64,000 bases of DNA from Candidatus Gygaella obscura. Lineage in GTDB: Bacteria > Omnitrophota > Gorgyraeia > Gygaellales > Gygaellaceae. Of the stretch, positions 3,574-59,961 are shown one piece after another. Position 1 is the stretch's first letter; the number at the start of each line of letters is the position of its first letter. The notes under the pieces are model-generated. The model had not been told where the DNA came from. It did no database searches and worked only from the letters and a program-made list of their open reading frames with translations. The stretch lies in NCBI GenBank assembly GCA_030765485.1, contig JAVCCR010000014.1, positions 14,332-78,331 on the forward strand. The letters are read 5' to 3'. A program made the translations under genes and the position numbers.

Positions 3574-3670
3574 TCTAGTTTTATTGACTAATCATTCTCG
3601 CCGTACTATAATTGTATATAGATAAATCTACTGTTTGTTGGTTTTTTATAATAATCCAAAGTATCTTTAC

Positions 3671-10536: not shown

Positions 10537-10543
10537 TTTTAAG

Positions 10544-11335: not shown

Positions 11336-11343
11336 CTATTCTT

Positions 11344-14270: not shown

Positions 14271-14273
14271 TTA

Positions 14274-22610: not shown

Positions 22611-23432
22611 ATGAAAAAAATATTCACTTCTTTGGATAACATATTAAAATACCGCAGTCTAATTTGGCAGCTTACCCTTAATGATCTAAAGATAAGATAT
22701 AGAAATCCTGTTCTTGGATTCTTATGGTCGATTATCATGCCCCTTGTGATGAGTTTGATTTTCAAATTTGTTTTTTCCAACCTTTTACGAAGTCAGATTT
22801 CAGATTACCCATTTTATATATATCTAATTGTTGCTATATTCCCCTGGAGTTACTTTTCTAGTAGTGTTTTTTCTTCCGTGGAGTCAATCGTAAACAATAG
22901 AGAGTTGATTAAAAAGAGTTATTTCCCCAGGGAGATAATCCCTTTTTCGATAGTTTTGGCAAATCTTATTAATTTTATTCCTGTTATATTGATAATGTTG
23001 TTAATTATAATGTTTTATGGTTTGAATTTCAGTCTTTTAGTTTTTTTGTTGCCTTTTGTTGTTTTGCTTGAAACAGTTTTGTTATTAGGGGTATCTCTAC
23101 TTGTTTCCAGCCTGCAGGTTTTTTTAAGAGATATAAAATATATTGTTCAGCTTGTTTTGACTGCATGGCTTTATTTTAGTCCGGCATTTTACTCGCTGGA
23201 TTTAGTGGTTGATATATCAGATTGGCTTTTGAGAGTATATATCCTTAATCCTTTTACGGGGATTTTTACTTTATATAGAATTGTACTTTTAGAAGGGTTT
23301 ATGGATAAGCTACCAACAGAATTGAATCTATTGATGCTTATAATCTGGACAATATTTGTTAGTTTTGCAATTTTCTTTATTGGTTTTTACGTTTTTAGGA
23401 AAAATGAGTCGAAATTCGTGGATCTACTATAA
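22611..23432 (+). CDS. wzm: ABC-2 type polysaccharide export permease (Wzm/TagG-like)
   Basis: 273 aa, 6 TM segments, ABC2_membrane pattern. Immediately followed by the ATPase gene. Confidence 0.8.
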   Translation: MKKIFTSLDNILKYRSLIWQLTLNDLKIRYRNPVLGFLWSIIMPLVMSLIFKFVFSNLLRSQISDYPFYIYLIVAIFPWSYFSSSVFSSVESIVNNRELIKKSYFPREIIPFSIVLANLINFIPVILIMLLIIMFYGLNFSLLVFLLPFVVLLETVLLLGVSLLVSSLQVFLRDIKYIVQLVLTAWLYFSPAFYSLDLVVDISDWLLRVYILNPFTGIFTLYRIVLLEGFMDKLPTELNLLMLIIWTIFVSFAIFFIGFYVFRKNESKFVDLL

Positions 23433-25157
23433 ATGAGTAAAGTATTCTTAGAAAATTTGGGTAAAAGCTTTATTTGTACTGATCATGTTATAAGACATAG
23501 TGGTTTGTTTCATAATTTGGTTAACCGTAAAGTGAATTCTCAATTCTGGGCATTACGTTATATTGATTTAAAGCTTGATCAAGGTCAAGTCTTGGGAGTC
23601 ATCGGCAGAAACGGTTCAGGTAAAACAACGCTTCTTAATATAATTGCCGGCATTATTCCCCATAGTGAAGGAAAGCTTGAAATCAACGGAAAGGTTTCCA
23701 GTCTTATATCTTTAGGCGCTGGTTTCCAGGATGAACTTACCGGAAGGGAGAATATCTATCTTAATGCATCGATATATGGTATGAGCAAAAAGGAGATAGA
23801 TAAAAAGATAGACCAAATTATAGAATTCTCCGAATTGGAAGGTTTTTTGGATTCCCCTCTTTATACATACTCTCAAGGCATGCGAATTAGATTGGGTTTT
23901 AGTATTGCCATATATGTTGATTTTAATATTTTATTGCTTGATGAGATAATTGCAGTAGGTGATATTGCATTCCAGAAAAAATGTTTTGCAAGTATTGATA
24001 ATTTCAAGAATCAAGGCAAGGCAATGATTATTACGACTCAAAATATGGATATTATTAACAGGCTTTGTGATAGAGCTATTTTATTAGAAAGCGGTAATAT
24101 ACTTGAAAAAGGAAATCCTGCTAAGGTGATTGCTCGCTATCTGGAGGTTTTGAATGAAAAGAAGCTTTCGCAGACATTTTCAAGGTATAACAATCCTTTA
24201 AAATGGTGGGCGGATAAACAGTCATGGGGTAAATTCGAAGGTAGCAAAGAAGCAAAGATAACAAGTATTGAGATTTGTAATTCAAAGGGAAAACTTACTA
24301 ACCGGCTTTATCCTTGCGAGAAGGTGAGGATAAAAATAAATTTTGACGTTGCAAAAGATATAGAATCCCCTCATTTCGGAGTTGCGATATTTAGAGAAGA
24401 TGGACTCTATTGTTATGGCCCTAATACACGTTTTGATGGGCACGAGATTGATAGAATCCATAAAGGCAAGGGCTTTTTTCTTATAGAATACAGGTCATTA
24501 TCATTAATGCCTGGCAAATATAGAATATCAGTTGCCATTTGGGATAAGGATGAAGTATGGGCATATGATTACCATGTGGCTTCGTATAGATTTGAGATTT
24601 TAGGAAAAAACGAATACAACCAGCTTGCGGATTTTGCCTACAGCCTTTCATTATTATCCTGGAAAGAGAAGTTTTTCAAAAAGCCAACAGTGGATTTAAG
24701 TTTATTATTTAACAGAGAGATATCTAACAATAAGGATGATAGTTGTAATGGTATAAAATTCTGTGACTTGACACTGTCTGATTCGTCAGGAAATGTAAAG
24801 GATGAGTTTTGTACAAATAGTAATCTGAGTCTTGAACTGAAGTTTGATTTCGGTAAGCTTAAACCTAGATTTAATCTTTGGGCAGGTATTTTTCGCGAAG
24901 ATGATGTTTATTTTCATGGTGTATTTAGTCCTCTTACAAAGAATAAGGTTGTAATTCTTTATCCTAAGCTGAGCTTGCTATCCGGCAGGTATTATATCTC
25001 TGTGGCAGTGTATGATTCTAAGGGCAGCAAAGTGTTATTTTTTATGAAAAAAGCAGTTTGTTTTAGTGTTAAATTTCCTAGAGAAGATCATGGGGCAATA
25101 TATCTGGATCATTCTTGGAGTTGGTTGCTACCTGTAAGTCAAAACAATGAAGAATAG
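23433..25157 (+). CDS. wzt: ABC transporter ATP-binding protein (Wzt/TagH-like) with two tandem C-terminal glycan-binding-like beta-sandwich domains
   Basis: Walker A 'GRNGSGKTTL', signature 'YSQGMRIRL', Walker B 'LLLDE'. The C-terminal ~300 aa contain two similar modules ('...HFGVAIFREDGLYCYG...GKYRISVAIWD' and '...NLWAGIFREDDVYFHG...GRYYISVAVYD'). Confidence 0.85.
   Translation: MSKVFLENLGKSFICTDHVIRHSGLFHNLVNRKVNSQFWALRYIDLKLDQGQVLGVIGRNGSGKTTLLNIIAGIIPHSEGKLEINGKVSSLISLGAGFQDELTGRENIYLNASIYGMSKKEIDKKIDQIIEFSELEGFLDSPLYTYSQGMRIRLGFSIAIYVDFNILLLDEIIAVGDIAFQKKCFASIDNFKNQGKAMIITTQNMDIINRLCDRAILLESGNILEKGNPAKVIARYLEVLNEKKLSQTFSRYNNPLKWWADKQSWGKFEGSKEAKITSIEICNSKGKLTNRLYPCEKVRIKINFDVAKDIESPHFGVAIFREDGLYCYGPNTRFDGHEIDRIHKGKGFFLIEYRSLSLMPGKYRISVAIWDKDEVWAYDYHVASYRFEILGKNEYNQLADFAYSLSLLSWKEKFFKKPTVDLSLLFNREISNNKDDSCNGIKFCDLTLSDSSGNVKDEFCTNSNLSLELKFDFGKLKPRFNLWAGIFREDDVYFHGVFSPLTKNKVVILYPKLSLLSGRYYISVAVYDSKGSKVLFFMKKAVCFSVKFPREDHGAIYLDHSWSWLLPVSQNNEE
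24240..25112 (+). other. Tandem duplicated Wzt C-terminal carbohydrate-binding-like domains (within wzt)
   Basis: Two ~130-aa segments share a conserved 'IFRED.(L/V)Y..G' ... 'G(K/R)Y.ISVA(I/V).D' core. Confidence 0.45.
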
Positions 25158-28100
25158 ATTTCCTAAAGTAAGTATAATTACGGTAAATTTTAACGGGAAG
25201 AAGTTTCTTAAAAACCTGTTAGATGGATTATTTTTTTTGAATTACCCTAAAGACAAGACAGAAATAATCTTTATAGATAATGGTTCTAGCGACGGCTCTG
25301 TAGCCTTTGTAAAGAATAAGTATCCTAAGGTTAAAATAATAAGAAATAAGCTTAATAATTACTGCGTAGGGATAAATTTGGGAATTAAAGCTTCCAAGGC
25401 AGAATTTGTAGCGTTACTGAATAATGATACTAAGGTTGATAAGGATTGGCTTGTTGAGCTTGTGAGTTGTATTCGCACAGGCAAAAATATTGCTGCTGTG
25501 GGAAGTAAGGTATTAAAATATGATGGGCTAATTCAAACTGCCGGTCATTATGAATTGCCGAATTACTACTGGGGAGAGCGACATTCTGGTAAAAAGAGCG
25601 CATCGCTGTCAAAGCGAGAGCAAGTTGATAGTCTCTGCGGTGCCTCCGTGATTTATAACCGGGCTTTAATTTTTAAATTAGGTCTATTTGATGAAGATTT
25701 TATTATGTATGGTGAAGACGTTGATATAAGTTATCGGTTAAGAAGTGCCGGTTACAGATTGTTGGTTGAACCTAAAAGCATTGTTTATCATACGTTTCAT
25801 GGTACGGCTTCAGTTGAGTTAAGTAATTTTTATATTGAAAGAAACCGTTTATTGTTTATAGCAAAACATATGCCTGATAGACTACCAGGAGCTTTATTAG
25901 GGAATGGTTATTTTGTTACTACAAAAAACCAGCATAACAAATCAGGGATATATGAAGTTTTATCTATTGTACTTCGTAAGCTTATAGATAATAGCTCTTT
26001 AGAAAAGGTAAATTATTTAATGCCGCAGATATTCGCAGAGTTAAGAAAGATTATTGCTTACGAAAACGATTATTTATCAAATGAGATCAATAAACTAAGA
26101 GACAATCTAGATAAAACCTATAAGACTTATAAGAAAATCGATAAAGAGCTTTTTGATAAAAAGGATGAATTAGCCAGAAAAGATGAGCAGAAACAAAAAC
26201 TCGATAGGCAAATTAAGGAAATAAGAATAAATGATCTGGCAAATCTCAAGAGGATTAATAACCAGCAGAATCTTTTATTAAAGCAGCAACAGAAAGAGAT
26301 TGTTTCAGTCAAAAAAGATGTTAGCAAATTATCAGATTCGGTAAATGATAGAGAAAAGCAAATTATCAAAAGGGATTCAGAGTATTCAAAGCTAAAAGAA
26401 AGTATTGAGAGTTTAAGAGATTCGATTCGATCGAAGGATTCTCAATCAAATCAGCATTTATTTAGTATAAAACGGCTTGGTGAGGAACAGCAGACTTTAA
26501 ATTCACAGCTTGAGAAGAAAAAGAGCGAAATTGTCGCCAAAGACTATGAAATTTCTAAGTTAAAAGAAAATCTTGCTCACTCTAGAGACATTTTGGATTT
26601 AAAAGAGGCTGATTTGAAAGAAAAATCTAATTACATTGATCAATTCAGCGATAGCCTGCGTAATGTAAATACCCAGTTAGAGATAAGGATTGAAGAGCTT
26701 TCTAAGCAGTTTGCTTTTATTCAAGAGGAATATGATAAAAAGTTAAAAGAATTACATGACAGCAATATTAATACCGAAAAGCTTAAGGCTGAGATAGCTG
26801 GTTTAGATAGCGGTCTTAAAGATAAGAGAAATCAACTTATAGATAAAGATAAAGAGCTAAAAGCTTCCATAGAACAAATTGTTTGTTTAAGGAATGAAAT
26901 TGATTGTATCTATTCATCAAAAGGTTATAGGTTTATTTTATCACCCATATGGAAAACGATATTCTTGTTTAAGAAGTTTTTCTCTAGCCTAAGACAATTA
27001 TTGTTGAAGGTTAAGCAAATTTTAACTTCTCTGGTGCTTAAGCCGGTTGCATTGATTAAAAAGATAGCAAGGATAATCCTTTTAGTGTTTAATAGGACTT
27101 TTTTAGCAAAATTATTTTGGTTTGGAGTGAGTGCTGTTTGTTCGTTTTTTGTTTTGTTACTTTTTTTGGGATTATCGGCAGAATATTTACTATGGAATTT
27201 ATTAAGGCCAGTATTGTCTAGAATTAAGCCCAAAAGAAACCCGATTAAAGTTAATGATTCAGTTAAGATAAGCCTGGTAATGCCTAATTACAATGGAATT
27301 GACATTTTAAAAGAGGCGCTACCTACAATATTCAGTATTGAAAGATTCGCCAATGGCAATGATGAGGTATTAATCGTAGATGATGCCAGTAAAGACGGCA
27401 GTGTTAAATTTATAAAAGAAAATTATCCAAAAATAAAGCTTATTAGGAATTATCGTAATAAGGGTTTTGGTTATACTTCTAATAGGGCGGTTAAATCAGC
27501 GAAGCATGAAGTTGTTGTGCTTATCAATAATGATATTAAACTTACTAAAGATTTTTTAAAGCATCTAGTGGATAGCCTTAAAGATAAAAATGTTTTTTCC
27601 GTTACACCTAAACTTTACGGATGGGACGAAAAGACATTTGCCTGGGGCATGCATATGGGGCATTTTGAGAATGGTTATATAAGGCTTTGGAATGAATGTG
27701 AAACTGGAAACGGGGATCGCATCAATAGGCCTTCACCGTCACTATTTGCCATAGGCGGGGCAATGGTTTTTAGAAAGTCTGATTTTATCTGGCTGAAGGG
27801 TTTTGATAGTATCTATAAGCCTAATTGTTGGGAGGATATTGATATTTCCTATCGGGCATGGAAACGAGGATTAAAGGTAATCTATGAACCAAGAAGCTTA
27901 TTGTTCCATAAGGCAAGGGCTACTTTGACATATGAAAGGCCAAAGGAAATTAAAAACGAGCTTTTATTTACCTGGAAGAACATAACAGATAAGAATATTC
28001 TTTTAAATCATATCAATCTGCTTCCTGATAATTTCTATCGTTATAGAATGAGTTTTTTAAAAGGATTCTTATGGGCATTGTTGTTTTTGCCAAGGGCGCT

Positions 28101-31100
28101 TCTACATAGATTGATGGAGAGGCCGTTTATAAAGCAAGATGATAGTTTGATTATCAATCATTGCATGAATTATTACAGGAATTTTAGATTGAGAGGTTTT
28201 AAGCATCTTTTACCGCAGGAGAAAAAGACGATTCTAATGGTTACTTCTTTTTTGCCTTTTCCTCTGAATATTGGCGGGCGAATTAGAATATATAATTTGG
28301 CTAAGCAATTAAGCAAGAAATACAACGTTATGCTTCTATCATTAATAGATAAGGAGGAAGAGCTTAATTGTGTGCCAGAGCTAAAAAAGGTTTTTAAGGA
28401 AGTTTTTACTGTTTTTCCAAAAAGCCCTTTAAACTTGAAATTATTCCCAGAACGATATAAATTCTCTTATAGCCAAATTCTTATTGAGAAGTTGATAGAA
28501 TTGAATAATGAATATGCTATAGATTTTATCCAAATAGAATCAAATGAGCTACTTTATCTCCAGCCTTACATTGACTACACGCCAGTTGTGTATACGGAAC
28601 ACGATTGCAGTTCTTTATTTTATAAAAATTCATATTATAAACGTAATGGTTTTCTAGCGGATTTCTTTGATTACCTAAAAAGGGTAAGATTCCATATTCT
28701 GGCTTTATCTAAATTAAAACATATCATTGTGCTTTCAAAAGAGGATCGCAGTATTCTGCGTAGCTTCTTACCAGAAAAAAAGTTTTCTTTGATTCCTACA
28801 GGTGTTGATCTCGAGCATTTTAAATTCAGTGAAACTATCAAAAGCCGAGGCAATAGGCTTATTTATGTTGGTCATTACCCCCATTATCCTAATGAAGATG
28901 CGGTTGTTCATTTTGTTAAAAAGATATTTCCATTAATAAGAAAACATGTTCCTGATATTGAATTTCATATCGTTGGTTCTGGAGTAACAGATGCAGTAAG
29001 CAATCTTGCACATTCTAAGGGGGTAAAGGTTATTGGTGAAGTTGAAGATGTTTATGATTATCTTAGGTTTGCAGATATATTCGTTAATCCCATTAGGATT
29101 AGTTCTGGAATAAAAGGCAAAGTTCTAGAGGCAATGGCAGTAGGGTTGCCGGTTGTTTCTACTAAGATTGGTTCATCGGGCATAACTGCTTTAGGCGGCA
29201 AAGAAATAATTTTAGTTAATTCAAATATTAATTTTGCTAGGCAGGTAGTGCGTTTGGTTAAAAACAGTGAGCTTAGGCTAAAGATAGCAAAAGATGCTCG
29301 TTTATTTGTAGAGCACAACTATGACTGGCAAAGAGTTTATACAATGCTGGATTCTTTTTTTGAAGATATCTATACTTTGTCTCTTCCTGAGGAAAGAGCG
29401 AATATGGATTTGGCAAATTTAGTCAATACGCTTAATGAGAACCTGCAGGATTCTATTGATCAGGGTGATATAAGTTATGATTTTCAGAATGGACCAAAGG
29501 AACTTCATATAGAACTTGATTATCATTGTAATAGTCGTTGTATTATGTGTGATTTATGGGATTATTCTAAAAGGAATAATTCTAAAGAAGTTTTGACTAA
29601 GAACGATATAAAGAAATTGCTTGATACTTCAAATAAGCTTGAGCATATCGATACAGTTGTTTTATCAGGCGGAGAACCTTTTTTAAAAAATGATTTATTC
29701 GATATATGCAGAATTTTATTGCAAAAGTATCCGCACCTATCTTTAGGAATACTTACCAATGGTATAGATACTCAGCGGATAATAGATATATCTGTTCGTG
29801 TAAAGAATGAACTCAGGCCAGCTAATTTCTGGCTCGGCACTTCTTTAGATGGAGTAGGTCAAGTCCATGATTATGTACGAGGCAGAAAAGGAGCGTATGA
29901 TGCTGTTATTGCCACAATAGCGCAGTGCCGTAAAAACAATATAGAAATTACAGCTACTTTTACTATTACAGCCGAAAATTTTGATTGTCTTTTGCCGGCA
30001 AAGAAAGTTGCTGATTCTTGTGGTATAGATTTCTATATCCAGTTTGTTGTTCCGAAACAGGAACGCAGTACCAGCGTATTTAAATTTAGCAATAAGGCGC
30101 TTTCTCGGATAGAAAAAGATTTATTTGAGTTGATCAGGCAAGAATTGGAAAAGACAGGTTTTAAAGATCAAGCATCTGCTAGTGAAATTGAAAAAAATCC
30201 AGGGCTTTTAGCAAAGATATATTATCTTTCTCATTTGAAGAAATATCAAACTGACCCCAAAAGATATTTTAGAAAGTGTGTTGCTGGATCAAGGTTTGCT
30301 ATGATTGATCCGTTGGGCAGGCTTTATTTTTGCCCAGGATTAAAAAATGCAGCTATAGGTAATATTAAGAAAGAGAAGTTCGATGATTTATGGATGTCTG
30401 ATAAGGCTAACAATACCAGAAAGTTTATATATAAACAACTATGTAATTGTTGGTTGGTTTGTATTGTTTTTCCGGTAATTGATAAATTTCTATTTGAGAA
30501 AGAAGAGGATGTTAAGATTGCCAATAGTAAAAACAGCTCTATCCTTAAAGTTGAAGATAAGAGAATTTCTTTTTGTAATGAGCATAAAAGTCTTCAGGAA
30601 TACAATAGGAGAGTTAATAAAGATGAGTTTGATAAGGGAGAGATTATCCTAAAGTCTACACCTCGAGGTATTGGTTTGGGGGTTCATTGGAAATGCAATG
30701 CGAATTGTGTTTTTTGTCTTGGGGGGCATCCTAAATTGTTTAATATGGATACTTACAGGAAATTCTTTGAGGAAAAACTTTTTGATATCCTGCCTCGCGC
30801 TGATTATTTGAATCTCTGCGGATTTGGAGAATTGTTATTGATGCCACAATGCAATGAGTTATTAACATATTTGAATAATTCTTTACCTCACATAAATAAA
30901 ATCATCACTACTAATGGTTCTACCATTACTGATGAAGTTATTGGTTATTTGACTTCCGGTAGGTATAGTCTGCAGGTTTCTATGCATGCCTCTAATCAGA
31001 AGCTGCATAATATGATTACAAACTTAAATAATTTCGATTTTATTGTTGGTCAGATAAAGAAGATGTTAAGACAACGAAAGGATAAATCTTCGCCTTCTGT

Positions 31101-31638
31101 CAATCTTGTGTTTGTTTTAAATACGTTTAATGTAGAGAATTTACCTGATTTTATTGAGTTTGCAGCTAGGCTTGGTGTAGATAGCGTAGTATGCAATTAC
31201 ATGACGATTTATTCTCAGAGTCATTTAAAATCTTCTTGCTTTTTTAAGCAAGATATCACTAATTCTATGATAGAAAAAGCTAAAGCAACTGCTTTAAAGC
31301 ACAATCTAATTGTTAATTTACCAGCGATGTTTAATGAAAACAGTTATCCTCGGGTTAAATGTTCTGATCCCTGGGAATATATCTATATAGAGACTGAAGG
31401 GTCAGTTTTGCCTTGCTGTTTTGCTGGGTCACATATAAGTTATTTATATCGTGATGATTTTAAGGAGATTTGGAACGGGCAGGTTTATCAGGAATTAAGA
31501 CGTTCTTTAAATAACGGCGGTCAGGCCCTATGGTGCAAGCATTGTATTAAAAATAATGCTTCAAATGTAAATAATTTGCGTTCTCACGTAAGTTTTCGAG
31601 AAGATATACAGAAGAATATCTTAGAATTCAATAAATAA
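25147..31638 (+). CDS. 2163-aa multidomain fusion: GT2 – ~290-aa coiled coil – TM hairpin – GT2 – GT4 – radical SAM/SPASM-like – radical SAM/SPASM-like
   Basis: aa 1-250 GT2 ('VSIITVNFNG...DNGSSDGS...NNDT'). aa ~300-590 continuous heptad-rich K/E/L/S sequence. aa ~600-690 two hydrophobic helices. aa ~700-950 second GT2 ('SLVMPNYNG...VDDASKDGS...INNDIKL'). aa ~1010-1340 GT4 with 'GIKGKVLEAMAVGLPVVST'. aa ~1370-1760 rSAM 'CNSRCIMC' (29527-29550) + 'SGGEPFL'. aa ~1790-2163 rSAM 'CNANCVFC' (30694-30717) with C-terminal 'PCCFAG...WCKHC' Cys cluster. Confidence 0.85.
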   Translation: MKNRFPKVSIITVNFNGKKFLKNLLDGLFFLNYPKDKTEIIFIDNGSSDGSVAFVKNKYPKVKIIRNKLNNYCVGINLGIKASKAEFVALLNNDTKVDKDWLVELVSCIRTGKNIAAVGSKVLKYDGLIQTAGHYELPNYYWGERHSGKKSASLSKREQVDSLCGASVIYNRALIFKLGLFDEDFIMYGEDVDISYRLRSAGYRLLVEPKSIVYHTFHGTASVELSNFYIERNRLLFIAKHMPDRLPGALLGNGYFVTTKNQHNKSGIYEVLSIVLRKLIDNSSLEKVNYLMPQIFAELRKIIAYENDYLSNEINKLRDNLDKTYKTYKKIDKELFDKKDELARKDEQKQKLDRQIKEIRINDLANLKRINNQQNLLLKQQQKEIVSVKKDVSKLSDSVNDREKQIIKRDSEYSKLKESIESLRDSIRSKDSQSNQHLFSIKRLGEEQQTLNSQLEKKKSEIVAKDYEISKLKENLAHSRDILDLKEADLKEKSNYIDQFSDSLRNVNTQLEIRIEELSKQFAFIQEEYDKKLKELHDSNINTEKLKAEIAGLDSGLKDKRNQLIDKDKELKASIEQIVCLRNEIDCIYSSKGYRFILSPIWKTIFLFKKFFSSLRQLLLKVKQILTSLVLKPVALIKKIARIILLVFNRTFLAKLFWFGVSAVCSFFVLLLFLGLSAEYLLWNLLRPVLSRIKPKRNPIKVNDSVKISLVMPNYNGIDILKEALPTIFSIERFANGNDEVLIVDDASKDGSVKFIKENYPKIKLIRNYRNKGFGYTSNRAVKSAKHEVVVLINNDIKLTKDFLKHLVDSLKDKNVFSVTPKLYGWDEKTFAWGMHMGHFENGYIRLWNECETGNGDRINRPSPSLFAIGGAMVFRKSDFIWLKGFDSIYKPNCWEDIDISYRAWKRGLKVIYEPRSLLFHKARATLTYERPKEIKNELLFTWKNITDKNILLNHINLLPDNFYRYRMSFLKGFLWALLFLPRALLHRLMERPFIKQDDSLIINHCMNYYRNFRLRGFKHLLPQEKKTILMVTSFLPFPLNIGGRIRIYNLAKQLSKKYNVMLLSLIDKEEELNCVPELKKVFKEVFTVFPKSPLNLKLFPERYKFSYSQILIEKLIELNNEYAIDFIQIESNELLYLQPYIDYTPVVYTEHDCSSLFYKNSYYKRNGFLADFFDYLKRVRFHILALSKLKHIIVLSKEDRSILRSFLPEKKFSLIPTGVDLEHFKFSETIKSRGNRLIYVGHYPHYPNEDAVVHFVKKIFPLIRKHVPDIEFHIVGSGVTDAVSNLAHSKGVKVIGEVEDVYDYLRFADIFVNPIRISSGIKGKVLEAMAVGLPVVSTKIGSSGITALGGKEIILVNSNINFARQVVRLVKNSELRLKIAKDARLFVEHNYDWQRVYTMLDSFFEDIYTLSLPEERANMDLANLVNTLNENLQDSIDQGDISYDFQNGPKELHIELDYHCNSRCIMCDLWDYSKRNNSKEVLTKNDIKKLLDTSNKLEHIDTVVLSGGEPFLKNDLFDICRILLQKYPHLSLGILTNGIDTQRIIDISVRVKNELRPANFWLGTSLDGVGQVHDYVRGRKGAYDAVIATIAQCRKNNIEITATFTITAENFDCLLPAKKVADSCGIDFYIQFVVPKQERSTSVFKFSNKALSRIEKDLFELIRQELEKTGFKDQASASEIEKNPGLLAKIYYLSHLKKYQTDPKRYFRKCVAGSRFAMIDPLGRLYFCPGLKNAAIGNIKKEKFDDLWMSDKANNTRKFIYKQLCNCWLVCIVFPVIDKFLFEKEEDVKIANSKNSSILKVEDKRISFCNEHKSLQEYNRRVNKDEFDKGEIILKSTPRGIGLGVHWKCNANCVFCLGGHPKLFNMDTYRKFFEEKLFDILPRADYLNLCGFGELLLMPQCNELLTYLNNSLPHINKIITTNGSTITDEVIGYLTSGRYSLQVSMHASNQKLHNMITNLNNFDFIVGQIKKMLRQRKDKSSPSVNLVFVLNTFNVENLPDFIEFAARLGVDSVVCNYMTIYSQSHLKSSCFFKQDITNSMIEKAKATALKHNLIVNLPAMFNENSYPRVKCSDPWEYIYIETEGSVLPCCFAGSHISYLYRDDFKEIWNGQVYQELRRSLNNGGQALWCKHCIKNNASNVNNLRSHVSFREDIQKNILEFNK
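26044..26914 (+). other. Long predicted coiled-coil segment inside the giant fusion protein; candidate chain-length 'molecular ruler'
   Basis: ~290 aa of uninterrupted charged, heptad-like sequence ('SKLKESIESLRDSIRSKD...ISKLKENLAHSRDILDLKEADLKEK...') between two GT2 domains. Confidence 0.55.
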
Positions 31639-31653
31639 TAATAAACAGATTAT

Positions 31654-34356
31654 ATGAAAATTGCTTTAGTGCAGTGTCCTGGTTGGGGTAGAGATTGTCC
31701 GCCTTATGCAATGGTTTTATTAGGTGCAATTTTAAAAAAAGCAGGTCACAAAGTTGATTATCTTGATATCAATAATGCTCTTTTTTGCAGTGGACCTGAT
31801 AAATATAGAAAATTTTGGGATGATAAAGATTTATATAGTTTTTGGTCATCAAAAAAAATGGTTGATGAGTTCATAAAGGACAACAAAAGGATGCTTGATT
31901 ATCAGGTGGATAGGATTTTATCTTCTGGTGTAAAGATGGTAGGTTTTACAGTACAGTTTAGTTCTTTGATTCTTAGCCTTGAGTTGGCCAAACGTATAAA
32001 GCAGCAGGATAATAGCCGTATAATTGTTTTTGGCGGGCCGGATTGCTCAAGGGAGCTTCGTGGTTTGGAAATAGCCAGAAATAAGTTTGTGGATATAGTT
32101 TGTGTTGGGGAGGGGGAAGAGGTTATAGTTGATGTTGCTTCGCTTATAGAAGGGGAAAATCGATTAGAGTTTATAAAGGGAACTTTGATAAAAGCTAAGG
32201 ATTCTTTTATTGATTGCGGTGATAGGAAGGTTATCAAGGGTTTAGACGATTTGCCTTTTCCGGATTATAAGGCGTTTGAGGAGGATATATCCTGTCGGCT
32301 TTATGCCCAGCCCGAACGTTTAGATATTTTTGATAGTCGGGGATGTCCGAGGCAGTGTCATTTCTGCAGCGAGTGGCAGTATTGGAAGAATTTCCGTTTT
32401 ATGAGCGGAGATAAGATGTTTTCTGAGGTTTGTAATGGGGTGAAGAATTTTCCTGGTGTAGATTATTTTTATTTTATCGGATCTTTGTTAAATGGTAACC
32501 TAAAGGCGCTTTCGCGTTTTTGTGATTTAGTGATTGAACACGATTTAAATATAAGATGGGCCGGACAGGTAATTATAAGGCCGGAAATGGACAAGGAGCT
32601 GCTTCAGAAGATGAAGTTAGCTGGGTGTGAGTGGTTAAGCTATGGAGTGGAAAGCGGGTCACAGAGGGTTTTAAATAAGATGAATAAAAGGTTCAGCCTT
32701 CAAGTAGCCGAAGAGGTAATTAGGAATACTCATTTGGCAGGGATTAATCAACAGGTTAATTTTATGTTTGGTTTTCCTACGGAAACAGAAGTTGAAGCAG
32801 ATGAAACAATTAATCTCTTGAAGAAAATAAGGAAAAATATCGATTCTGTATTGGCTAGCCAGTCTTTTTGTGTTATTGATAAAGGCACATATATTTATGA
32901 ACACCCAGAGGAGTTTTCACTTATCGATAAGGAACACCATCTTTTTTGGGAAAGCAAAGACAACACCTATCTTATTAGGTTTAATAGATATGAGAAGTTT
33001 TGTAAAGAAGCCTTGGCTTTGGGCCTGCCTGAAACCTCAGGACTTTTGAGAAATAAACCAGATAAATGGAGTCTTTTGGGCGAGTACCATTTATACAAAA
33101 AAGATTATGAAAATGCTATAGTTTGTTTTAAGAAAGCTTTTGACAAAGAATTTTTAAAGGAAAACATCCAAGAAAAAATAAATAAGTGCCGTGATTTATT
33201 AAGTCAGGAAACACTAGTTATCGAAAAGCCGAGTTTAGTTTCGTTTGAAGTTAAAAAAGATCAAATATTGCAGGATCATTCTTTTTTAAGCGATAGGTAT
33301 AAAGATATCGCGTGTTATCTTCTTAACCACGGCTTGGATTTAAAGCTGAAGAATTTTCTTTTGGTAGAGAAGGAAAAGATGCAGAGAAAAGAGGTTTTAT
33401 CCGGCTATCCTTATTGGTGTGTAATTGACCCAGCGAATTACTGCAACCTTAAGTGCCCATTTTGTCCTACCGGTCAAGGACGAAACTCTCGTTTTAGATC
33501 GATCTTATCACTAGATAATTATAAACGAATCATTGAAGAGATCGGACCTTATCTTATACATATTGATTTTTGTAATTGGGGAGAACCTTTTTTAAACCCG
33601 AATATTTTCGAGATGATCAGGCTTGCTAAAGAATATGATATTGATACAAAGGTTGATTCAAATTTTAATTTACTTACAGAAAATGATTTGGATAGGTTGA
33701 TAGCATCAGGTCTTGATAAGGTTATAGTATCGATTGATGGAGTTAGCGAAGAAACTTATTCAAAATATAGAGTAGGCGGTAATTATTATAAGGCAATGGA
33801 TAATATGAAGAAGCTGATTGAGAAAAAAAGACGCTTGAATAGTTTAAATCCGCAGGTTCATTGGCAATTTCTGGTATTTAGGCATAATGAACATGAGATA
33901 GAACAGGCCAAAAGAATAGCCGATAATCTGGGCGTTGATCATCTAGGCATAACTAAAGCATTTATTGGTAACAAAGATTGGTTCCCTGAGAATAAAGAAT
34001 ATAGTAATTATCACGGTGATACTTTAAAGGATGTTGATAGCGCTAAGGATACAGCTTTGTTATTTAAGGATAGTAGTTCAAAGATTTGTTATTGGCCGTG
34101 GGAGGCGATAGCTATTAATCCTAATGGTTCAGTATCAGTCTGTTGCTCGGTAGAGGAAGAAAAAGATGATTTTGGCAATATTTTTAATCAGCCTTTTAAT
34201 AAGCTATGGAATAACGATAAATACGTTTCTGCAAGAAGATTTTTGGTAAACAGAGGCAATAATGGACATAAACATTCCGAGGATAATATATGTTTTAGGT
34301 GTAAACACATAGGAATGATTAATATCAGTTTAGCTTCTATGAGCAGTTTTCAATAA
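31654..34356 (+). CDS. Two-module radical SAM fusion: B12-binding (class B) radical SAM + TPR-like linker + radical SAM/SPASM-like
   Basis: N-terminal 'MKIALVQCPGWGRDCPPYAMVLLGAILKKAGHKVDYLDIN' B12-binding-like domain, then 'RGCPRQCHFCSEW' (CxxxCxxC). Second module 'NYCNLKCPFCPTGQG' with C-terminal 'CCSVEEE...CFRCKH' cluster. Confidence 0.8.
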   Translation: MKIALVQCPGWGRDCPPYAMVLLGAILKKAGHKVDYLDINNALFCSGPDKYRKFWDDKDLYSFWSSKKMVDEFIKDNKRMLDYQVDRILSSGVKMVGFTVQFSSLILSLELAKRIKQQDNSRIIVFGGPDCSRELRGLEIARNKFVDIVCVGEGEEVIVDVASLIEGENRLEFIKGTLIKAKDSFIDCGDRKVIKGLDDLPFPDYKAFEEDISCRLYAQPERLDIFDSRGCPRQCHFCSEWQYWKNFRFMSGDKMFSEVCNGVKNFPGVDYFYFIGSLLNGNLKALSRFCDLVIEHDLNIRWAGQVIIRPEMDKELLQKMKLAGCEWLSYGVESGSQRVLNKMNKRFSLQVAEEVIRNTHLAGINQQVNFMFGFPTETEVEADETINLLKKIRKNIDSVLASQSFCVIDKGTYIYEHPEEFSLIDKEHHLFWESKDNTYLIRFNRYEKFCKEALALGLPETSGLLRNKPDKWSLLGEYHLYKKDYENAIVCFKKAFDKEFLKENIQEKINKCRDLLSQETLVIEKPSLVSFEVKKDQILQDHSFLSDRYKDIACYLLNHGLDLKLKNFLLVEKEKMQRKEVLSGYPYWCVIDPANYCNLKCPFCPTGQGRNSRFRSILSLDNYKRIIEEIGPYLIHIDFCNWGEPFLNPNIFEMIRLAKEYDIDTKVDSNFNLLTENDLDRLIASGLDKVIVSIDGVSEETYSKYRVGGNYYKAMDNMKKLIEKKRRLNSLNPQVHWQFLVFRHNEHEIEQAKRIADNLGVDHLGITKAFIGNKDWFPENKEYSNYHGDTLKDVDSAKDTALLFKDSSSKICYWPWEAIAINPNGSVSVCCSVEEEKDDFGNIFNQPFNKLWNNDKYVSARRFLVNRGNNGHKHSEDNICFRCKHIGMINISLASMSSFQ

Positions 34357-34364
34357 TAGGTAAT

Positions 34365-37310
34365 ATGGAAAAAGAAAAAAGAATAAAGTTTGTTTGGAAT
34401 CTGCATTATGCCTGTAATTACAGGTGTAGTTACTGTAATTTTAATGGTAGCTGGGATGAGCTTTCAGTAAAAAATAAGAAAATTAGCAAGAATGATTGGA
34501 TTAAGGCATGGGATAGGATTTATGATTTATATGGAAGCGTTGATATTCATCTTGTTGGTGGAGAGCCTTGCATATATCCTGATTTTACTGAGATTGTTTG
34601 TAGAATCTCAAAGAAGCATTTTTTAGGTCTTACTACTAATCTTTCAGTTGATTTTAAAAGGTTTGCTGACAGTGTTTCGCCGAAAAGATTTGAGTTTGGT
34701 ATAGGGGCTAGTTTTCATCCGCAGTACGTTAAATTTGAAGACTTTCTAAGTAAGGTGATTGAATTGAAGAATAAAGGGTTTAAAATCTGGGTAAATTATG
34801 TTGCCTATCCGCCCCAGATTGATAAAATGAATTTTTTTAAAAGCACACTTCAAAAACACGGTATTCCTTTTGTCGTACAGCCGTTTCGTGGGACATATAA
34901 TGATAAAATTTACCCTGAGGCTTATACCGATAGTGATCGGTCTATTATTAAGGATATTGCCGGTACGGATTCAAGTATTCAGCAAGACATGCAGTATCAG
35001 TTGGATCGCAAGAATACAAAAGGAGTGCTTTGTAGGGCAGGGCAGATCTTAGCACATATAGAACCCGATGGCACAGTTAAAAGATGTGGTTTGATTGAAA
35101 AGCCTATTGGTAATATATTCGATGCAAACTTTCGATTATTAGATAAACCTTTACCTTGCACTGAAGAACATTGTCCTTGTGATTATATATATTTGGTAGA
35201 TTCGAATGAAAAATTAAATGAGTATTCTGCGAAAAGACAAGATAATATCTCGGAAAAAGAAGCAAGCGCACATGTGGTTGTTGATTTGATTGAAGAGGCT
35301 GAATTTTGTCTGTTTAAGCTGGAGGATTTTGATACCGCAGAGGCATTGATAAAAAAGGCACTTGCAAAAGATAAAGATAATATTTGGGGGCTAAGGGTTT
35401 TAGCTAACATTTTTAGAAGAAAAGCTGAAAGTAATAATAATGATAATCTTTTGCTTCAAAAGGCAAGAGAAGTTATTGATGATGCGTTATTTATAAGCAA
35501 AGGGGATTCATGTGTGCTTGCTGAATCAGCGCGGATTTATCTTGCGCAGAATCAATATAGAAAGGCAGATTTTGAAATTGTTAAGGCGATTAAAAAAGAT
35601 TCGGAAAATACATATTTTCAGGAGGTGAATCAGAAGATAAAAGATACGGCCTTGTCTTCTATTGATAAGAATTCTTTATCCGTTTCTAATGATCATTTAG
35701 ATATGATGCTTGTTTTGACTCCGGGGTGGGGTAGGGAATCGGCTCCGTTTGCTCTGGCGTCTTTGACAGGTCTTTTGAGGAAGCATAATTTTATAGTTAA
35801 ATCGTTTGATATTAATAATTTTATTTTTCATAGACTTTCTTCTGATAAAAGCAGTGTACAGTTGTGGGATTGGGAGCAGTGCGGTTTTTGGGACGATCGG
35901 CCGTCTGTCGAAAATTTTATCAATAAAAATTCTATTTTAATAGATTCTATAGTTGATTCTATCCTTAAGCAAAAACCAGAGGTTATCGGTTTCTCGGTAT
36001 ATCTGACAACTAAAATAATGAGTCTTGAGTTTGCAAGACGCATAAAAGCAAAAAATCCTAATATTTTAATAGTGTTTGGTGGTTCGCAGTGTCGCCGAAA
36101 AGAAAACTGGAGAGAGCTTATTGAAAATGATTTTGTCGATGCAATTATTTTAGATGATGCAGAAGCAACAATTATCGATTTTTTGAATATTTTTAAGAAA
36201 GAAAAAAAGATTAAATATTGTCCTGGTCTTATTTATCGTGATGGTACTGATATTATAGATTGTGGTGATAGGTCTGTTGTTGATTTAGATGATTTGCCTT
36301 TTGCCGATTTTAGTGATTTTGATTTTAAAAGCTATAAATGCCCGCATATTATCAAAATTGCTTTTAGCCGTGGTTGTACAGAAGGTTGCGCTTATTGTAG
36401 TGCTCGTACAGTATGGCGGGGTTTTAGGACAATGAATGGAGAGAGGATTTTTAATGAGATAAAGTTTCAGGTCGAGAATTTTCATAAGAGAATGGATTAT
36501 TCAATGATCCCTCATTTAATTTTCCTCGATTCTTTAATCAACGCAAATATGCTTGTATTGAAGGATTGGCTTATGCGGTTAGTGGAAGTACGCAAGGATA
36601 AAAATGGTCCGCTTTTTAATTTTATCTGGAGAGCGCAAGCGATTATACGACCGGAAATGAATGAGGAGATTATATCCTTGATCAAGGATTCAGGGTGTGT
36701 AGAGATAAATTATGGGATAGAAAGCGGTTCTGCAAAGGTCTTAAAAGATATGCGAAAAAGATATACGCCTGAGATTGCAGAAAAGGTAGTTCGTTGTATT
36801 TACAAATATGGTATACCGGCAAAAGCTAATTTTATGTTTGGTTTTCCTACCGAAACAGAAGAAGATTTTAAAGGTACACTAAATTTTATTCAAAGGAATG
36901 CCCGATTTATGACAGAGGTTTATCCTAGCAGGACATTTTGTGCTATTGAGAGATTCACTTATCTGTTTGAAAATAGGGAAAAATTCGGAATTTTACCGCA
37001 AAAGCAGGAAAACCATCTTTTTTGGCAATCGCAGAACGGAAAGAATAATTATCTTGTAAGAGTGGAAAGATATTTTGCCTTCTGTAAGCTACTTGCAAAT
37101 CTTGATCATAAGCCTTTGGTGACGGGGGTTGATAATATTGAACGGGACAAGTGGCTTTCTCTCGGACAGTATTATCAGTATGAACAGGATTTTACCAAGG
37201 CGTTAGAGTGTTATGATAATTATATTAAGTTAAACGGAGTTATTGATTCAGTGGAAGAGTCTATGAATATATGCAAAGCCTATTTATCCAAAAGAGAGAC
37301 GAAAATCTAA
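34365..37310 (+). CDS. Two-module radical SAM fusion: radical SAM module + TPR region + B12-binding (class B) radical SAM
   Basis: N-terminal 'NLHYACNYRCSYCNF' + 'HLVGGEPCIYP' + C-terminal 'CRAG...RCG...PCTEEHCPCD'. After the TPR region: 'MMLVLTPGWGRESAPFALASLTGLLRKHNF' (B12-like) and 'RGCTEGCAYCSART'. Confidence 0.8.
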   Translation: MEKEKRIKFVWNLHYACNYRCSYCNFNGSWDELSVKNKKISKNDWIKAWDRIYDLYGSVDIHLVGGEPCIYPDFTEIVCRISKKHFLGLTTNLSVDFKRFADSVSPKRFEFGIGASFHPQYVKFEDFLSKVIELKNKGFKIWVNYVAYPPQIDKMNFFKSTLQKHGIPFVVQPFRGTYNDKIYPEAYTDSDRSIIKDIAGTDSSIQQDMQYQLDRKNTKGVLCRAGQILAHIEPDGTVKRCGLIEKPIGNIFDANFRLLDKPLPCTEEHCPCDYIYLVDSNEKLNEYSAKRQDNISEKEASAHVVVDLIEEAEFCLFKLEDFDTAEALIKKALAKDKDNIWGLRVLANIFRRKAESNNNDNLLLQKAREVIDDALFISKGDSCVLAESARIYLAQNQYRKADFEIVKAIKKDSENTYFQEVNQKIKDTALSSIDKNSLSVSNDHLDMMLVLTPGWGRESAPFALASLTGLLRKHNFIVKSFDINNFIFHRLSSDKSSVQLWDWEQCGFWDDRPSVENFINKNSILIDSIVDSILKQKPEVIGFSVYLTTKIMSLEFARRIKAKNPNILIVFGGSQCRRKENWRELIENDFVDAIILDDAEATIIDFLNIFKKEKKIKYCPGLIYRDGTDIIDCGDRSVVDLDDLPFADFSDFDFKSYKCPHIIKIAFSRGCTEGCAYCSARTVWRGFRTMNGERIFNEIKFQVENFHKRMDYSMIPHLIFLDSLINANMLVLKDWLMRLVEVRKDKNGPLFNFIWRAQAIIRPEMNEEIISLIKDSGCVEINYGIESGSAKVLKDMRKRYTPEIAEKVVRCIYKYGIPAKANFMFGFPTETEEDFKGTLNFIQRNARFMTEVYPSRTFCAIERFTYLFENREKFGILPQKQENHLFWQSQNGKNNYLVRVERYFAFCKLLANLDHKPLVTGVDNIERDKWLSLGQYYQYEQDFTKALECYDNYIKLNGVIDSVEESMNICKAYLSKRETKI

Positions 37311-37315
37311 TTTTT

Positions 37316-59881: not shown

Positions 59882-59961
59882 TCTATCTATAATATAATGT
59901 GGTTTCTATTCAATTAATAAACTAATAATATTATAACATTAGGTAAATATATTTGCTTTTT

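What the first reader, a model, noticed from the sequence alone, without database searches (positions are those of the whole stretch)
25147..31638. 2163-aa single polypeptide fusing three glycosyltransferases, a ~290-residue coiled coil and two radical-SAM domains
The architecture GT2–coiled coil–TM hairpin–GT2–GT4–rSAM–rSAM is read directly from the translation. It recalls the WbdA/WbdD and WbbB systems of ABC-transporter-dependent O-antigen synthesis, where a coiled coil between polymerising and chain-terminating modules sets polymer length. If that holds, the two C-terminal radical-SAM domains occupy the position of the chain-terminating or capping enzyme. The wzt just upstream carries tandem terminal-cap-binding-like domains, which fits that reading. 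I do not know of a described radical-SAM glycan terminator.
Basis: partly seen in the sequence, partly recalled or inferred. Interest (0 to 1): 0.85.

Follow-up and report, generated by a model that had tools for sequence, protein, structure and literature searches.

The report
Giant glycan assembly enzyme with radical-SAM domains
A real, conserved 2163-residue protein of uncultured Omnitrophota bacteria joins a coiled-coil "ruler"-type surface-sugar polymerase to two radical-SAM enzyme domains, but the likely chain-capping module is its N-terminal glycosyltransferase, not the radical-SAM domains.

Summary
ORF 25147-31638 is an uninterrupted 2163-aa gene with the stated domain order, and it is 100% identical to a Candidatus Gygaella obscura (Omnitrophota) protein. 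The same seven-module fusion recurs in at least 8 other species-level genomes at 41-53% identity. The spacer (aa ~285-590) is a true heptad-periodic, proline-free helix. In homologs it varies from ~170 to ~545 residues, partly through exact 35-residue (5-heptad) repeats. Wzt upstream carries two Wzt_C modules.

The locus does look like a WbdD/WbbB/O7-ORF6-type system, with an ABC transporter that senses a chain cap and a coiled-coil ruler. [quoted passage not shown] That GT2 and the tandem-CBM Wzt are the invariant pair across five architecture classes. The radical-SAM tail is variable: two, one, a different one, or none. rSAM2 is a separate gene in many genomes, and rSAM1 stays with GT2b-GT4 even where the coil is absent.

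The radical-SAM domains are intact SPASM/twitch enzymes of no named family. They most likely tailor the sugar or polymer. The locus holds 13 radical-SAM domains, which has no described counterpart in this pathway.

The parts
22611..23432 (+). Wzm, ABC-2 permease of the glycan exporter
   Evidence: PF01061 ABC2_membrane, E = 5.8e-19. Conserved directly upstream in all homolog loci with enough flank.
23433..25157 (+). Wzt, ABC ATPase (aa ~1-250) with two tandem Wzt_C carbohydrate-binding modules (CBM1 ~aa 255-410, CBM2 ~aa 425-574)
   Evidence: PF00005 plus PF14524 in 2 stretches. The two halves align at 27% identity, E = 1e-9. CBM1 is 44-59% identical across classes A-E, as conserved as the ATPase domain. 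CBM2 is 26-43% identical.
25147..25926 (+). GT2a (aa 1-260): N-terminal GT-A glycosyltransferase at the membrane-distal end of the coil; proposed chain terminator
   Evidence: PF00535/PF13641 at aa 6-220. Acidic motifs are invariant in 9 sequences: D44, D49, N92, D94, E183, D184, E190, D191, D193. It is the most uniformly conserved module across classes A-E, 47-61% identity. Foldseek best matches are GT-A enzymes.
25999..26916 (+). Coiled-coil spacer (aa ~285-590), proposed molecular ruler
   Evidence: No proline. Heptad power 1.18 vs 0.22 +/- 0.22 for shuffles. AF2 helices 285-431 and 441-590 with a low-confidence break at 432-440. Homolog spacers are ~170-545 aa, with periods that are multiples of 7 and exact 35-aa repeats.
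26932..27099 (+). Cationic amphipathic helices (aa 596-651), interfacial membrane-binding region
   Evidence: 11 K/R, 0 D/E, hydrophobic moment 0.45-0.58. AF2 helices 592-629 and 636-646. Preceded by the conserved G[FY]RF.L.P.W motif in homologs.
27100..27204 (+). Hydrophobic membrane anchor (aa 652-686), probably re-entrant because both flanks are cationic
   Evidence: Kyte-Doolittle peak of 2.47. One ~30-35-residue hydrophobic segment at the same place in all class A-C homologs, most with a central [S/T]-P. The following flank, aa 687-706, has 6 K/R.
27271..27903 (+). GT2b (aa 709-919): membrane-proximal GT-A glycosyltransferase, proposed polymerase module 1
   Evidence: PF00535 best stretch 709-879, PF13506 780-919. 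64-73% identity in classes A/B.
28279..29340 (+). GT4 (aa 1045-1398): GT-B glycosyltransferase, proposed polymerase module 2
   Evidence: PF13439 at 1045-1223, PF00534/PF13692 at 1225-1398. PDB sequence match to PimA-type mannosyltransferases, E = 4e-7.
29494..30471 (+). rSAM1 (aa ~1450-1775): radical-SAM domain with a twitch/partial-SPASM auxiliary-cluster region
   Evidence: PF04055 at 1460-1605. Invariant C1461/C1465/C1468 plus C1594, C1711, C1729, C1766, C1768, C1772 in 14 sequences. Below every NCBIfam cutoff; the best is N_Twi_rSAM at 107 bits against a cutoff of 170. Fused to GT2b-GT4 in classes A, B and F.
30664..31566 (+). rSAM2 (aa ~1840-2140): second radical-SAM/SPASM domain, BtrN-like at the sequence level
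   Evidence: PF13186 at 2072-2133. Invariant C1850/C1854/C1857 plus C1891, C2031, C2072, C2090, C2091, C2130, C2133 in 11 sequences. Best PDB sequence hit is BtrN, E = 3e-4. A separate gene in class B.
31654..34356 (+). 900-aa fusion of a B12-binding radical-SAM (class B methyltransferase-like) domain and a SPASM radical-SAM domain; conserved operon partner
   Evidence: PF02310 plus PF04055 (2 stretches) plus PF13186. 46-63% identity at 99% coverage, directly after the giant gene or rSAM2, in 8 homolog loci.

Best explanation
The gene encodes a single-polypeptide polymerase, ruler and terminator for a surface glycan. The glycan is built on a lipid carrier at the cytoplasmic face of the membrane and exported by Wzm/Wzt. 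This is the same logic as Klebsiella O12 WbbB and O7 ORF6.

A cationic amphipathic region and a re-entrant hydrophobic segment (aa 596-686) pin the middle of the protein to the membrane. GT2b and GT4 sit next to the anchor and polymerise the chain, most simply as an alternating two-linkage repeat. The ~300-residue coiled coil, probably a parallel homo-oligomer, holds the N-terminal GT2a away from the membrane. GT2a therefore caps only chains that have reached a set length. The cap is then read by the conserved first CBM of the tandem-CBM Wzt, which licenses export.

The two C-terminal radical-SAM domains are not the terminator. They are tailoring enzymes tethered to the polymerase. They abstract a hydrogen atom from a sugar C-H of the nascent lipid-linked chain, or of the donor sugar. 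With an auxiliary Fe-S cluster as electron sink, they resolve the radical as oxidation to a keto-sugar or as epimerisation. They work with the conserved downstream B12-radical-SAM/SPASM protein, a probable C-methylase.

Shown: the ORF, the domains, the heptad repeat, the membrane segment, intact catalytic motifs, conserved synteny, and modular variation. Inferred: which module terminates, the ruler function, the coil's oligomeric state and orientation, and the radical-SAM chemistry and substrate.
For: 1. System type. Wzm plus Wzt with Wzt_C lie directly upstream, and this holds in every architecture class. An extended heptad coil is present. [quoted passage not shown]

2. Geometry. The membrane anchor lies between the coil and GT2b, so only GT2a is distal.

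3. Co-variation. GT2a is 47-61% identical in classes A-E, while GT4 drops to 30-37% in class C and GT2b/GT4 are absent in class D. In class E no GT2b is detected, the query's GT4 finds no match, and Pfam finds only a divergent C-terminal GT1-type domain. The same classes always carry a 548-580-aa tandem-CBM Wzt with CBM1 at 44-59%. Class F, without GT2a or coil, has a 423-aa single-CBM Wzt at 28-31%.

4. GT2a keeps invariant acidic motifs.

5. The spacer behaves like an evolvable ruler. It ranges from ~170 to ~545 aa, its periods are multiples of 7, and it contains exact 35-aa (5-heptad) tandem copies.

6. The radical-SAM tail is accessory and tied to the polymerase. It has 2, 1, another type, or 0 domains. 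rSAM2 is a separate gene in class B. rSAM1 is fused to GT2b-GT4 in class F. In L006 a methyltransferase with a coiled-coil tail sits next to the class F gene.

8. The B12-rSAM/SPASM partner is conserved.
Against: No experiment exists for any family member.

A GT2-type terminator has not been described. Known terminators are the methyltransferase and kinase domains of WbdD and O7 ORF6, and the GT99 and GT137 Kdo transferases. The high conservation of GT2a could equally mean that it builds a conserved backbone or primer.

The AF2 monomer model breaks the coil at its exact midpoint (aa 432-440). If the two ~150-residue helices fold back on each other, GT2a would return to the membrane and the ruler geometry would fail.

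The hydrophobic segment is modelled as one long helix, so its topology is inferred from charge distribution only.

Class D places the radical-SAM pair directly after the coil, so a coil-to-rSAM relationship exists in some relatives.

Confidence: 0.55

Rival explanations
1. GT2a, GT2b and GT4 together build the chain, and the C-terminal radical-SAM didomain makes the chain-terminating modification (for example an oxidised, rearranged or methylated terminal sugar). The Wzt CBMs recognise that modification.
For: The locus clearly belongs to a cap-sensing export system. The radical-SAM domains are intact and conserved. Class D proteins are GT2a-coil-rSAM-rSAM, so in those the coil does separate a GT from the radical-SAM pair. 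Two CBMs could read two features, and CBM2 varies more (26-43%), as the radical-SAM complement does.
Against: The radical-SAM domains sit on the polymerase and membrane side of the coil, contrary to the rule for all characterised systems. Classes C and E and protein P0026 keep the same tandem-CBM Wzt and GT2a-coil but have a different radical-SAM domain or none. rSAM2 is an independent gene in many genomes. rSAM1 travels with GT2b-GT4 where no coil exists.
Confidence: 0.12
2. The coil is not a ruler. It is an oligomerisation or scaffold element that assembles a multi-enzyme complex. GT2a is a primer, adaptor or co-polymerase. Chain length is set otherwise, for example by transporter-to-synthase stoichiometry as in Klebsiella O2a.
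For: GT2a and GT2b are paralogues at about 30% identity, which fits both being chain-building enzymes. GT2a is very conserved, as a backbone enzyme would be. The AF2 monomer model has a mid-coil break that could indicate a fold-back arm. O2a-type systems regulate length without a terminator.
Against: O2a-type systems lack a CBM on Wzt, whereas here two CBMs are present and conserved. Spacer length changes in register-preserving 35-residue blocks over a threefold range, which is expected for a distance-setting rod but not needed for a simple oligomerisation motif. Published work treats the coil plus CBM combination as diagnostic of terminator control.
Confidence: 0.2
3. A variant of the best explanation regarding radical-SAM function. 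The radical-SAM domains act on nucleotide-sugar donors, not on the polymer. They would carry out, for example, BlsE-like decarboxylation or DesII-like deamination/oxidation, and channel an unusual donor to the adjacent GT4 or GT2b.
Against: Thirteen radical-SAM domains, several fused to TPR repeats, are more than donor synthesis would plausibly need. Sequence and fold similarity to BlsE and DesII is remote, 15-16% identity. No test distinguishes a polymer substrate from a donor substrate here.
Confidence: 0.2

Closest known systems
WbbB of Klebsiella pneumoniae O12 / Raoultella terrigena (single-protein polymerase-ruler-terminator)
   Same: One polypeptide with an N-terminal single GT module, an extended coiled coil and two C-terminal polymerising GT modules. 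It works with Wzm/Wzt whose ATPase carries a cap-binding CBM (for the query).
   Different: The WbbB terminator is a GT99 beta-Kdo transferase, whereas here the distal module is a GT-A GT2. The query has an internal amphipathic and hydrophobic membrane anchor between coil and polymerase, a coil of ~300 residues, two CBMs on Wzt instead of one, and two radical-SAM domains appended to the polymerase. No sequence homology to WbbB was detected in the PDB sequence searches.
ORF6 of Klebsiella pneumoniae O7, and WbdD/WbdA of E. coli O9a/O8 (Klebsiella O3/O5)
   Same: The terminator sits at the distal end of a coiled-coil ruler. The polymerase GT2 modules lie at the C-terminal end in cis (O7 ORF6), or are recruited to the membrane-proximal end next to an amphipathic helix (WbdD). 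Export needs the cap to be read by the Wzt CBM.
   Different: Those terminators are methyltransferase or kinase domains that use ordinary SAM/ATP chemistry. The query has no such domain. Only the class F relative in L006 has a neighbouring methyltransferase with a coiled-coil tail. None of these systems contains radical-SAM enzymes (literature searches found none).
SPASM/twitch radical-SAM enzymes acting on carbohydrates: BtrN, BlsE, DesII
   Different: Identity is only 15-18%. No curated family cutoff is reached. The known enzymes are free-standing, soluble, and act on small molecules in antibiotic pathways. Here the domains are fused in tandem to a membrane-anchored glycan polymerase.

Membership tests
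Terminator-coupled, coiled-coil-ruler, ABC-transporter-dependent glycan assembly (WbdD / WbbB / O7-ORF6 type) | Wzm/Wzt ABC transporter encoded with the synthase | tested here: met
   PF01061 and PF00005 genes lie directly upstream, and the wzt stop overlaps the ORF start. Conserved in all classes.
Terminator-coupled, coiled-coil-ruler, ABC-transporter-dependent glycan assembly (WbdD / WbbB / O7-ORF6 type) | Carbohydrate-binding module (Wzt_C) on the C-terminus of the Wzt ATPase | tested here: met
   PF14524, E = 2.6e-33, two stretches. Internal duplication confirmed.
Terminator-coupled, coiled-coil-ruler, ABC-transporter-dependent glycan assembly (WbdD / WbbB / O7-ORF6 type) | [quoted passage not shown] | tested here: met
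   Heptad periodicity, AF2 helices 285-431 and 441-590, and family-wide periods that are multiples of 7.
Terminator-coupled, coiled-coil-ruler, ABC-transporter-dependent glycan assembly (WbdD / WbbB / O7-ORF6 type) | [quoted passage not shown] | tested here: inconclusive
   A GT2 with intact motifs occupies that position and co-varies with the CBM-Wzt. Its terminating activity is inferred, not shown.
Terminator-coupled, coiled-coil-ruler, ABC-transporter-dependent glycan assembly (WbdD / WbbB / O7-ORF6 type) | Membrane-association element at the polymerase-proximal end of the coil | tested here: met
   Cationic amphipathic helices at 596-651 plus a hydrophobic core at 652-686. Conserved in classes A-C.
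Terminator-coupled, coiled-coil-ruler, ABC-transporter-dependent glycan assembly (WbdD / WbbB / O7-ORF6 type) | Coil length sets modal glycan chain length | not testable with these tools
   Only indirect evidence: a threefold natural length range generated by 35-residue blocks.
WbbB / WbdD protein families (homology, not mechanism) | GT99 Kdo-transferase domain (WbbB), or methyltransferase plus kinase domains (WbdD, O7 ORF6) | tested here: not met
   No such Pfam or NCBIfam hit. The distal domain is a GT-A GT2 whose nearest structures are GT2/GT27 enzymes. It works like these systems but is not a homologue of their terminators.
Radical-SAM superfamily, SPASM/twitch subgroup | CX3CX2C cluster motif, partial TIM-barrel fold, and a C-terminal cysteine-rich auxiliary-cluster domain | tested here: met
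Any functionally defined radical-SAM family (NCBIfam equivalogs such as NirJ, MftC, PqqE, AhbD, tungsten-cofactor maturase, twitch N_Twi_rSAM) | Score at or above the curated family cutoff | tested here: not met
   All hits are far below cutoff: N_Twi_rSAM 107 vs 170, NirJ2 96 vs 500, W_rSAM_matur 96 vs 380.
GT2 and GT4 glycosyltransferase families | Pfam domain above the gathering score, with acidic catalytic and metal-binding motifs retained | tested here: met
   PF00535 at 145 bits, PF13692 at 93.5 bits, PF13439 at 36.7 bits. Invariant D/E motifs in GT2a.

The most novel reading that the evidence does not exclude
Omnitrophota mature a lipid-linked polysaccharide much as some bacteria mature ribosomal peptides. 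A battery of radical-SAM enzymes (13 domains in this locus, four of them a conserved core) is partly welded to the polymerase. These enzymes rewrite unactivated C-H bonds of the nascent chain in the cytoplasm by epimerisation, oxidation and B12-dependent C-methylation. Simple donor sugars are thereby turned into a chemically unprecedented polymer. One such modification, read by the second and more variable Wzt CBM, acts together with the GT2a cap as an export checkpoint.
Probability: 0.25. Interest if true: 0.88.

Novelty: new variant of a known kind. Interest (0 to 1): 0.62.

Why it matters
Coiled-coil rulers with cap-sensing ABC exporters are the best-understood way bacteria set the length of surface polysaccharides. 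All studied cases come from Proteobacteria and use conventional transferases.

This family would extend the principle to a deep-branching, uncultured phylum. It has a different type of candidate terminator (a GT2), an internal membrane anchor, a coil up to ~545 residues long that evolves by five-heptad blocks, and a duplicated cap-reading module.

More unusually, radical-SAM domains are covalently coupled to a glycan polymerase and sit inside a locus with 13 such domains. Radical chemistry on polysaccharide backbones is essentially undescribed. If it is real, it would open a new class of glycan modifications and of radical-SAM substrates. The fused, modular proteins offer a defined starting point for reconstitution.

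Tried and rejected
- An exact-sequence lookup of the protein found no encoding contig. The source was identified through the homolog search instead.
It was repeated without that row.
- AF2 coordinates are not exposed. Whether the two ~150-residue coil helices are extended or folded back could therefore not be determined.
- Distant tandem radical-SAM relatives in cultured Prosthecochloris (L039, L041, 26% identity) turned out to be four stand-alone rSAM/SPASM genes beside a GFO/IDH/MocA oxidoreductase, with no GT, Wzm or Wzt. They were rejected as a model for this system.
- Four literature searches for radical SAM combined with O-antigen, Wzt, ABC-transporter-dependent synthesis or glycan epimerase, plus one read of an Omnitrophota preprint, found no description of radical-SAM enzymes in this pathway. 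The library is open-access only, so absence is not proof.
- NCBIfam gave no functional family for any radical-SAM domain in the locus.
- A single-pass TM reading of aa 652-686 was rejected. Both flanks are strongly cationic, and both flanking parts need cytoplasmic substrates and cofactors (NDP-sugars, SAM, Fe-S). This is inference.

Full report
**What is there**

The window is low-GC (~33%), and every listed ORF of at least 150 aa except two that overlap larger + strand ORFs is on the + strand. ORF 25147-31638 is an uninterrupted 2163-codon reading frame. Its ATG overlaps the stop of the preceding wzt by 11 nt.

- GT2, aa 6-220
- a domain-free helical stretch
- a hydrophobic region
- GT2, aa 709-919
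- GT4, aa 1045-1398
- Radical_SAM, two stretches
- SPASM, two stretches

The protein is 100% identical to an NCBI entry annotated only as 'glycosyltransferase' from a Candidatus Gygaella obscura MAG (Omnitrophota).

**Is the fusion real?**

Yes. Ten further protein clusters have the same seven-part architecture at 44-49% identity. In GTDB species-representative genomes the radical-SAM-bearing reading frame is continuous through rSAM2 in eight loci, and all relatives at 35% identity or more come from Omnitrophota-type MAGs. A frameshift or chimeric assembly is excluded.

**Coiled coil**

- Residues 294-595 have no proline and 1.3% glycine, and are rich in K, L, E, I and D.
- Hydrophobic periodicity at 3.5 residues is coherent over all 302 residues: power 1.18, against 0.22 +/- 0.22 for shuffles, with 10 of 2000 shuffles reaching it. 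Three globular control domains show nothing.
- AlphaFold2 on aa 1-720 (pLDDT 67.6) gives helices 285-431 and 441-590.
- Across 29 homologs the strongest internal self-similarity periods of the spacer are almost all multiples of seven: 35, 70, 105, 28, 21 and so on.
- Several homologs carry exact tandem copies of a 35-residue, five-heptad unit.
- The distance from GT2a to the membrane segment ranges from about 170 to about 545 residues.

This spacer is a register-constrained rod whose length evolves in heptad-preserving blocks.

**Membrane element**

The 'TM hairpin' needs refining. Residues 596-651 are amphipathic and very cationic (11 K/R, no D/E, hydrophobic moment 0.45-0.58). Residues 652-686 are a single 35-residue hydrophobic core. 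Residues 687-706 are again cationic.

The model draws the core as one 40-residue helix. Most homologs have a central [S/T]-P in it. Both flanks are positive, and both flanking parts need cytoplasmic substrates. I therefore infer a re-entrant or hairpin anchor plus an interfacial helix. This is analogous in role to the amphipathic helix of WbdD.

**Surroundings**

- Upstream lie Wzm (22611) and a 574-aa Wzt with two Wzt_C modules.
- Further upstream are a GT2, an FAD oxidoreductase, a Wzy_C ligase-like gene and ManC.
- Downstream is a long run of glycan genes: GT2, GT4, a PMT_2-type GT-C, GDSL esterases, a second Wzy_C and WecG/TagA.
- Interleaved with these are radical-SAM genes at 31654 (two domains, one B12-binding), 34365 (two, one B12-binding), 37993, 40752 (two), 47791, 56043, 57346 (B12-binding) and 60923.
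- That makes 13 radical-SAM domains between 25 and 62 kb.

**Comparative anatomy**

Relatives fall into architecture classes:

| Class | Architecture |
|---|---|
| A | full seven modules |
| B | as A, without rSAM2 |
| C | same core, with one unrelated radical-SAM domain |
| P0026 | core only |
| D | GT2a-coil-rSAM-rSAM |
| E | GT2a-coil, then an unassigned ~680-residue region and a GT1-type domain (Pfam); no radical-SAM domain |
| F | short N-terminus, hydrophobic segment, GT2b-GT4-rSAM1; no GT2a or coil |

Four facts matter most.

1. In every class with GT2a and coil, the gene follows Wzm and a long Wzt directly.
2. GT2a is the most evenly conserved module, at 47-61% identity in classes A-E. 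Those classes always have the tandem-CBM Wzt, with CBM1 (44-59%) as conserved as the ATPase domain. Class F has a 423-aa, single-CBM Wzt at only 28-31%.
3. rSAM2 is a stand-alone gene immediately downstream in class B (47% identity, E = 8e-127; eight loci). Its fusion is therefore lineage-specific.
4. rSAM1 remains fused to GT2b-GT4 in class F. In L006 the neighbouring 331-aa gene is a Methyltransf_11 protein with a coiled-coil-like tail, a WbdD-like arrangement in trans.

**Comparison with known systems**

The Klebsiella O4/O7 study summarises the field (PMC11231755):
- They all have a CBM on Wzt that admits only capped chains.
[quoted passage not shown]'

WbbB (O12) is terminator GT, coil, two polymerase GTs. 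O7 ORF6 is methyltransferase-kinase, coil, two GT2 modules.

Mapped onto the query, GT2a is the distal module and GT2b-GT4 are the membrane-proximal polymerase pair. The radical-SAM domains hang off the polymerase.

The invariant pairing of GT2a-coil with a conserved CBM1, against a variable polymerase and radical-SAM complement, is what a terminator and cap-reader pair would show.

**The radical-SAM domains**

- Both keep CX3CX2C. rSAM1 has six further invariant cysteines and rSAM2 has seven.
- The didomain model has pLDDT 80.
- By sequence, rSAM2 is closest to BtrN, including the C-X17-C ... C-X2-C auxiliary-cluster region.
- No curated NCBIfam family is reached.

The nearest precedents for sugar-like substrates are dehydrogenation (BtrN), decarboxylation (BlsE) and deamination/oxidation (DesII). 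I therefore commit to hydrogen abstraction from a sugar C-H, resolved as oxidation or epimerisation. I cannot tell whether the substrate is the nascent polymer or a donor sugar.

The 900-aa protein combining a B12-radical-SAM and a SPASM radical-SAM domain (31654) is a conserved operon partner, at 46-63% identity and full length in eight loci. This suggests a multi-step radical tailoring pathway that includes C-methylation.

**Limits**

- Nothing here is experimental.
- The AF2 monomer breaks the coil exactly at its midpoint (aa 432-440). Without coordinates I cannot exclude a fold-back arm. I regard repeated one-sided insertion of five-heptad blocks as easier to reconcile with a parallel homo-oligomeric rod, but that is inference.
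- A GT2-type terminator has no precedent.
- The final acceptor of the glycan (LPS core or protein) is unknown.

**Novelty and verdict**

The strategy of ruler, cap and cap-sensing exporter is known. This family is a new variant of it in Omnitrophota. Its distinguishing features are a candidate GT2 terminator, an internal membrane anchor, duplicated CBMs and, most unusually, radical-SAM domains fused to the polymerase within an exceptionally radical-SAM-rich glycan locus.

I found no description of radical-SAM enzymes in this pathway in the searchable literature. Interest is moderate to high.

Noticed in passing
window 25147-62146: Exceptional density of radical-SAM domains in one glycan locus: 13 domains in 9 genes. 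These are the giant ORF (2), 31654 (2, one B12-binding), 34365 (2, one B12-binding, plus TPR), 37993, 40752 (2, plus TPR), 47791, 56043, 57346 (B12-binding) and 60923. They are interleaved with GT2, GT4, GT-C, GDSL and Wzy_C genes.
   Followed up: partly
window 31654-34356: A 900-aa fusion of a B12-binding radical-SAM (methyltransferase-like) domain and a SPASM radical-SAM domain. It is a conserved partner placed directly after the giant gene (or after rSAM2) in 8 homolog loci at 46-63% identity.
   Followed up: partly
window 23433-25157: Wzt carries two tandem Wzt_C carbohydrate-binding modules. CBM1 is as conserved across relatives as the ATPase domain (44-59%), and CBM2 is much more variable (26-43%). 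Relatives lacking the GT2a-coil protein have a single CBM. Characterised Wzt proteins that I know of have one CBM (own knowledge).
   Followed up: partly
homologs P0003, P0004, P0005, P0008 (coiled-coil regions): Near-exact tandem copies of a 35-residue (five-heptad) unit, e.g. LIEKDQQLTSLKEELTNLSNQLKHRMDEVLIKDGQ three times in P0005. This shows recent length change of the coil in register-preserving steps.
   Followed up: partly
L006:4017-5012 (+), next to class F gene L006:5363-9040: A 331-aa protein with a Methyltransf_11 domain (23.3 bits, cutoff 21.2) and a C-terminal coiled-coil-like tail lies directly upstream of a GT2b-GT4-rSAM1 protein and near a single-CBM Wzt. This is a possible WbdD-like terminator acting in trans.
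   Followed up: partly
P0139 (Vibrio hyugaensis, 768 aa): A distant rSAM1-like domain (27% identity) is fused to a polysaccharide pyruvyl transferase domain (PF04230) in a cultured Vibrio. This is another radical-SAM plus polysaccharide-modifying fusion, in a tractable organism.
   Followed up: no
L030 and L020: L030 has a rearranged order: Wzm, tandem-CBM Wzt, a stand-alone rSAM1-like gene (409 aa), then the GT2a gene. In L020 the frame changes between GT2b and GT4, which means either a split gene or a frameshift in that MAG.
   Followed up: no
window 37271-37996 and 44126-45745: A small GT2 (241 aa) plus a PMT_2-type GT-C membrane protein. These could form a polyprenol-phosphate-sugar route for periplasmic decoration of the exported glycan. 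Two Wzy_C (O-antigen-ligase-like) genes are present, at 19093 and 53030.
   Followed up: no
window 8825-12234: Two tandem ParA/MinD-type ATPases, each with an inserted 4Fe-4S ferredoxin domain. They are followed by a small radical-SAM protein (10544) and an ARMT1-like damage-control phosphatase (11344). This looks like a separate Fe-S-related cassette of unknown role.
   Followed up: no
window 39048-40721, 46784-47788, 59953-60915, 62166-62894: Four ORFs of 242-557 aa inside the glycan/radical-SAM locus have no Pfam match. The first two also have no NCBIfam match.
   Followed up: no
window 1-64000: GC skew is strongly and uniformly positive in every 2-kb bin. All listed ORFs of at least 150 aa except two (3667-4152 and 14018-14560, both overlapping larger + strand ORFs) are on the + strand. 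GC falls from ~0.36 to ~0.28 towards the 3' end of the window.
   Followed up: no
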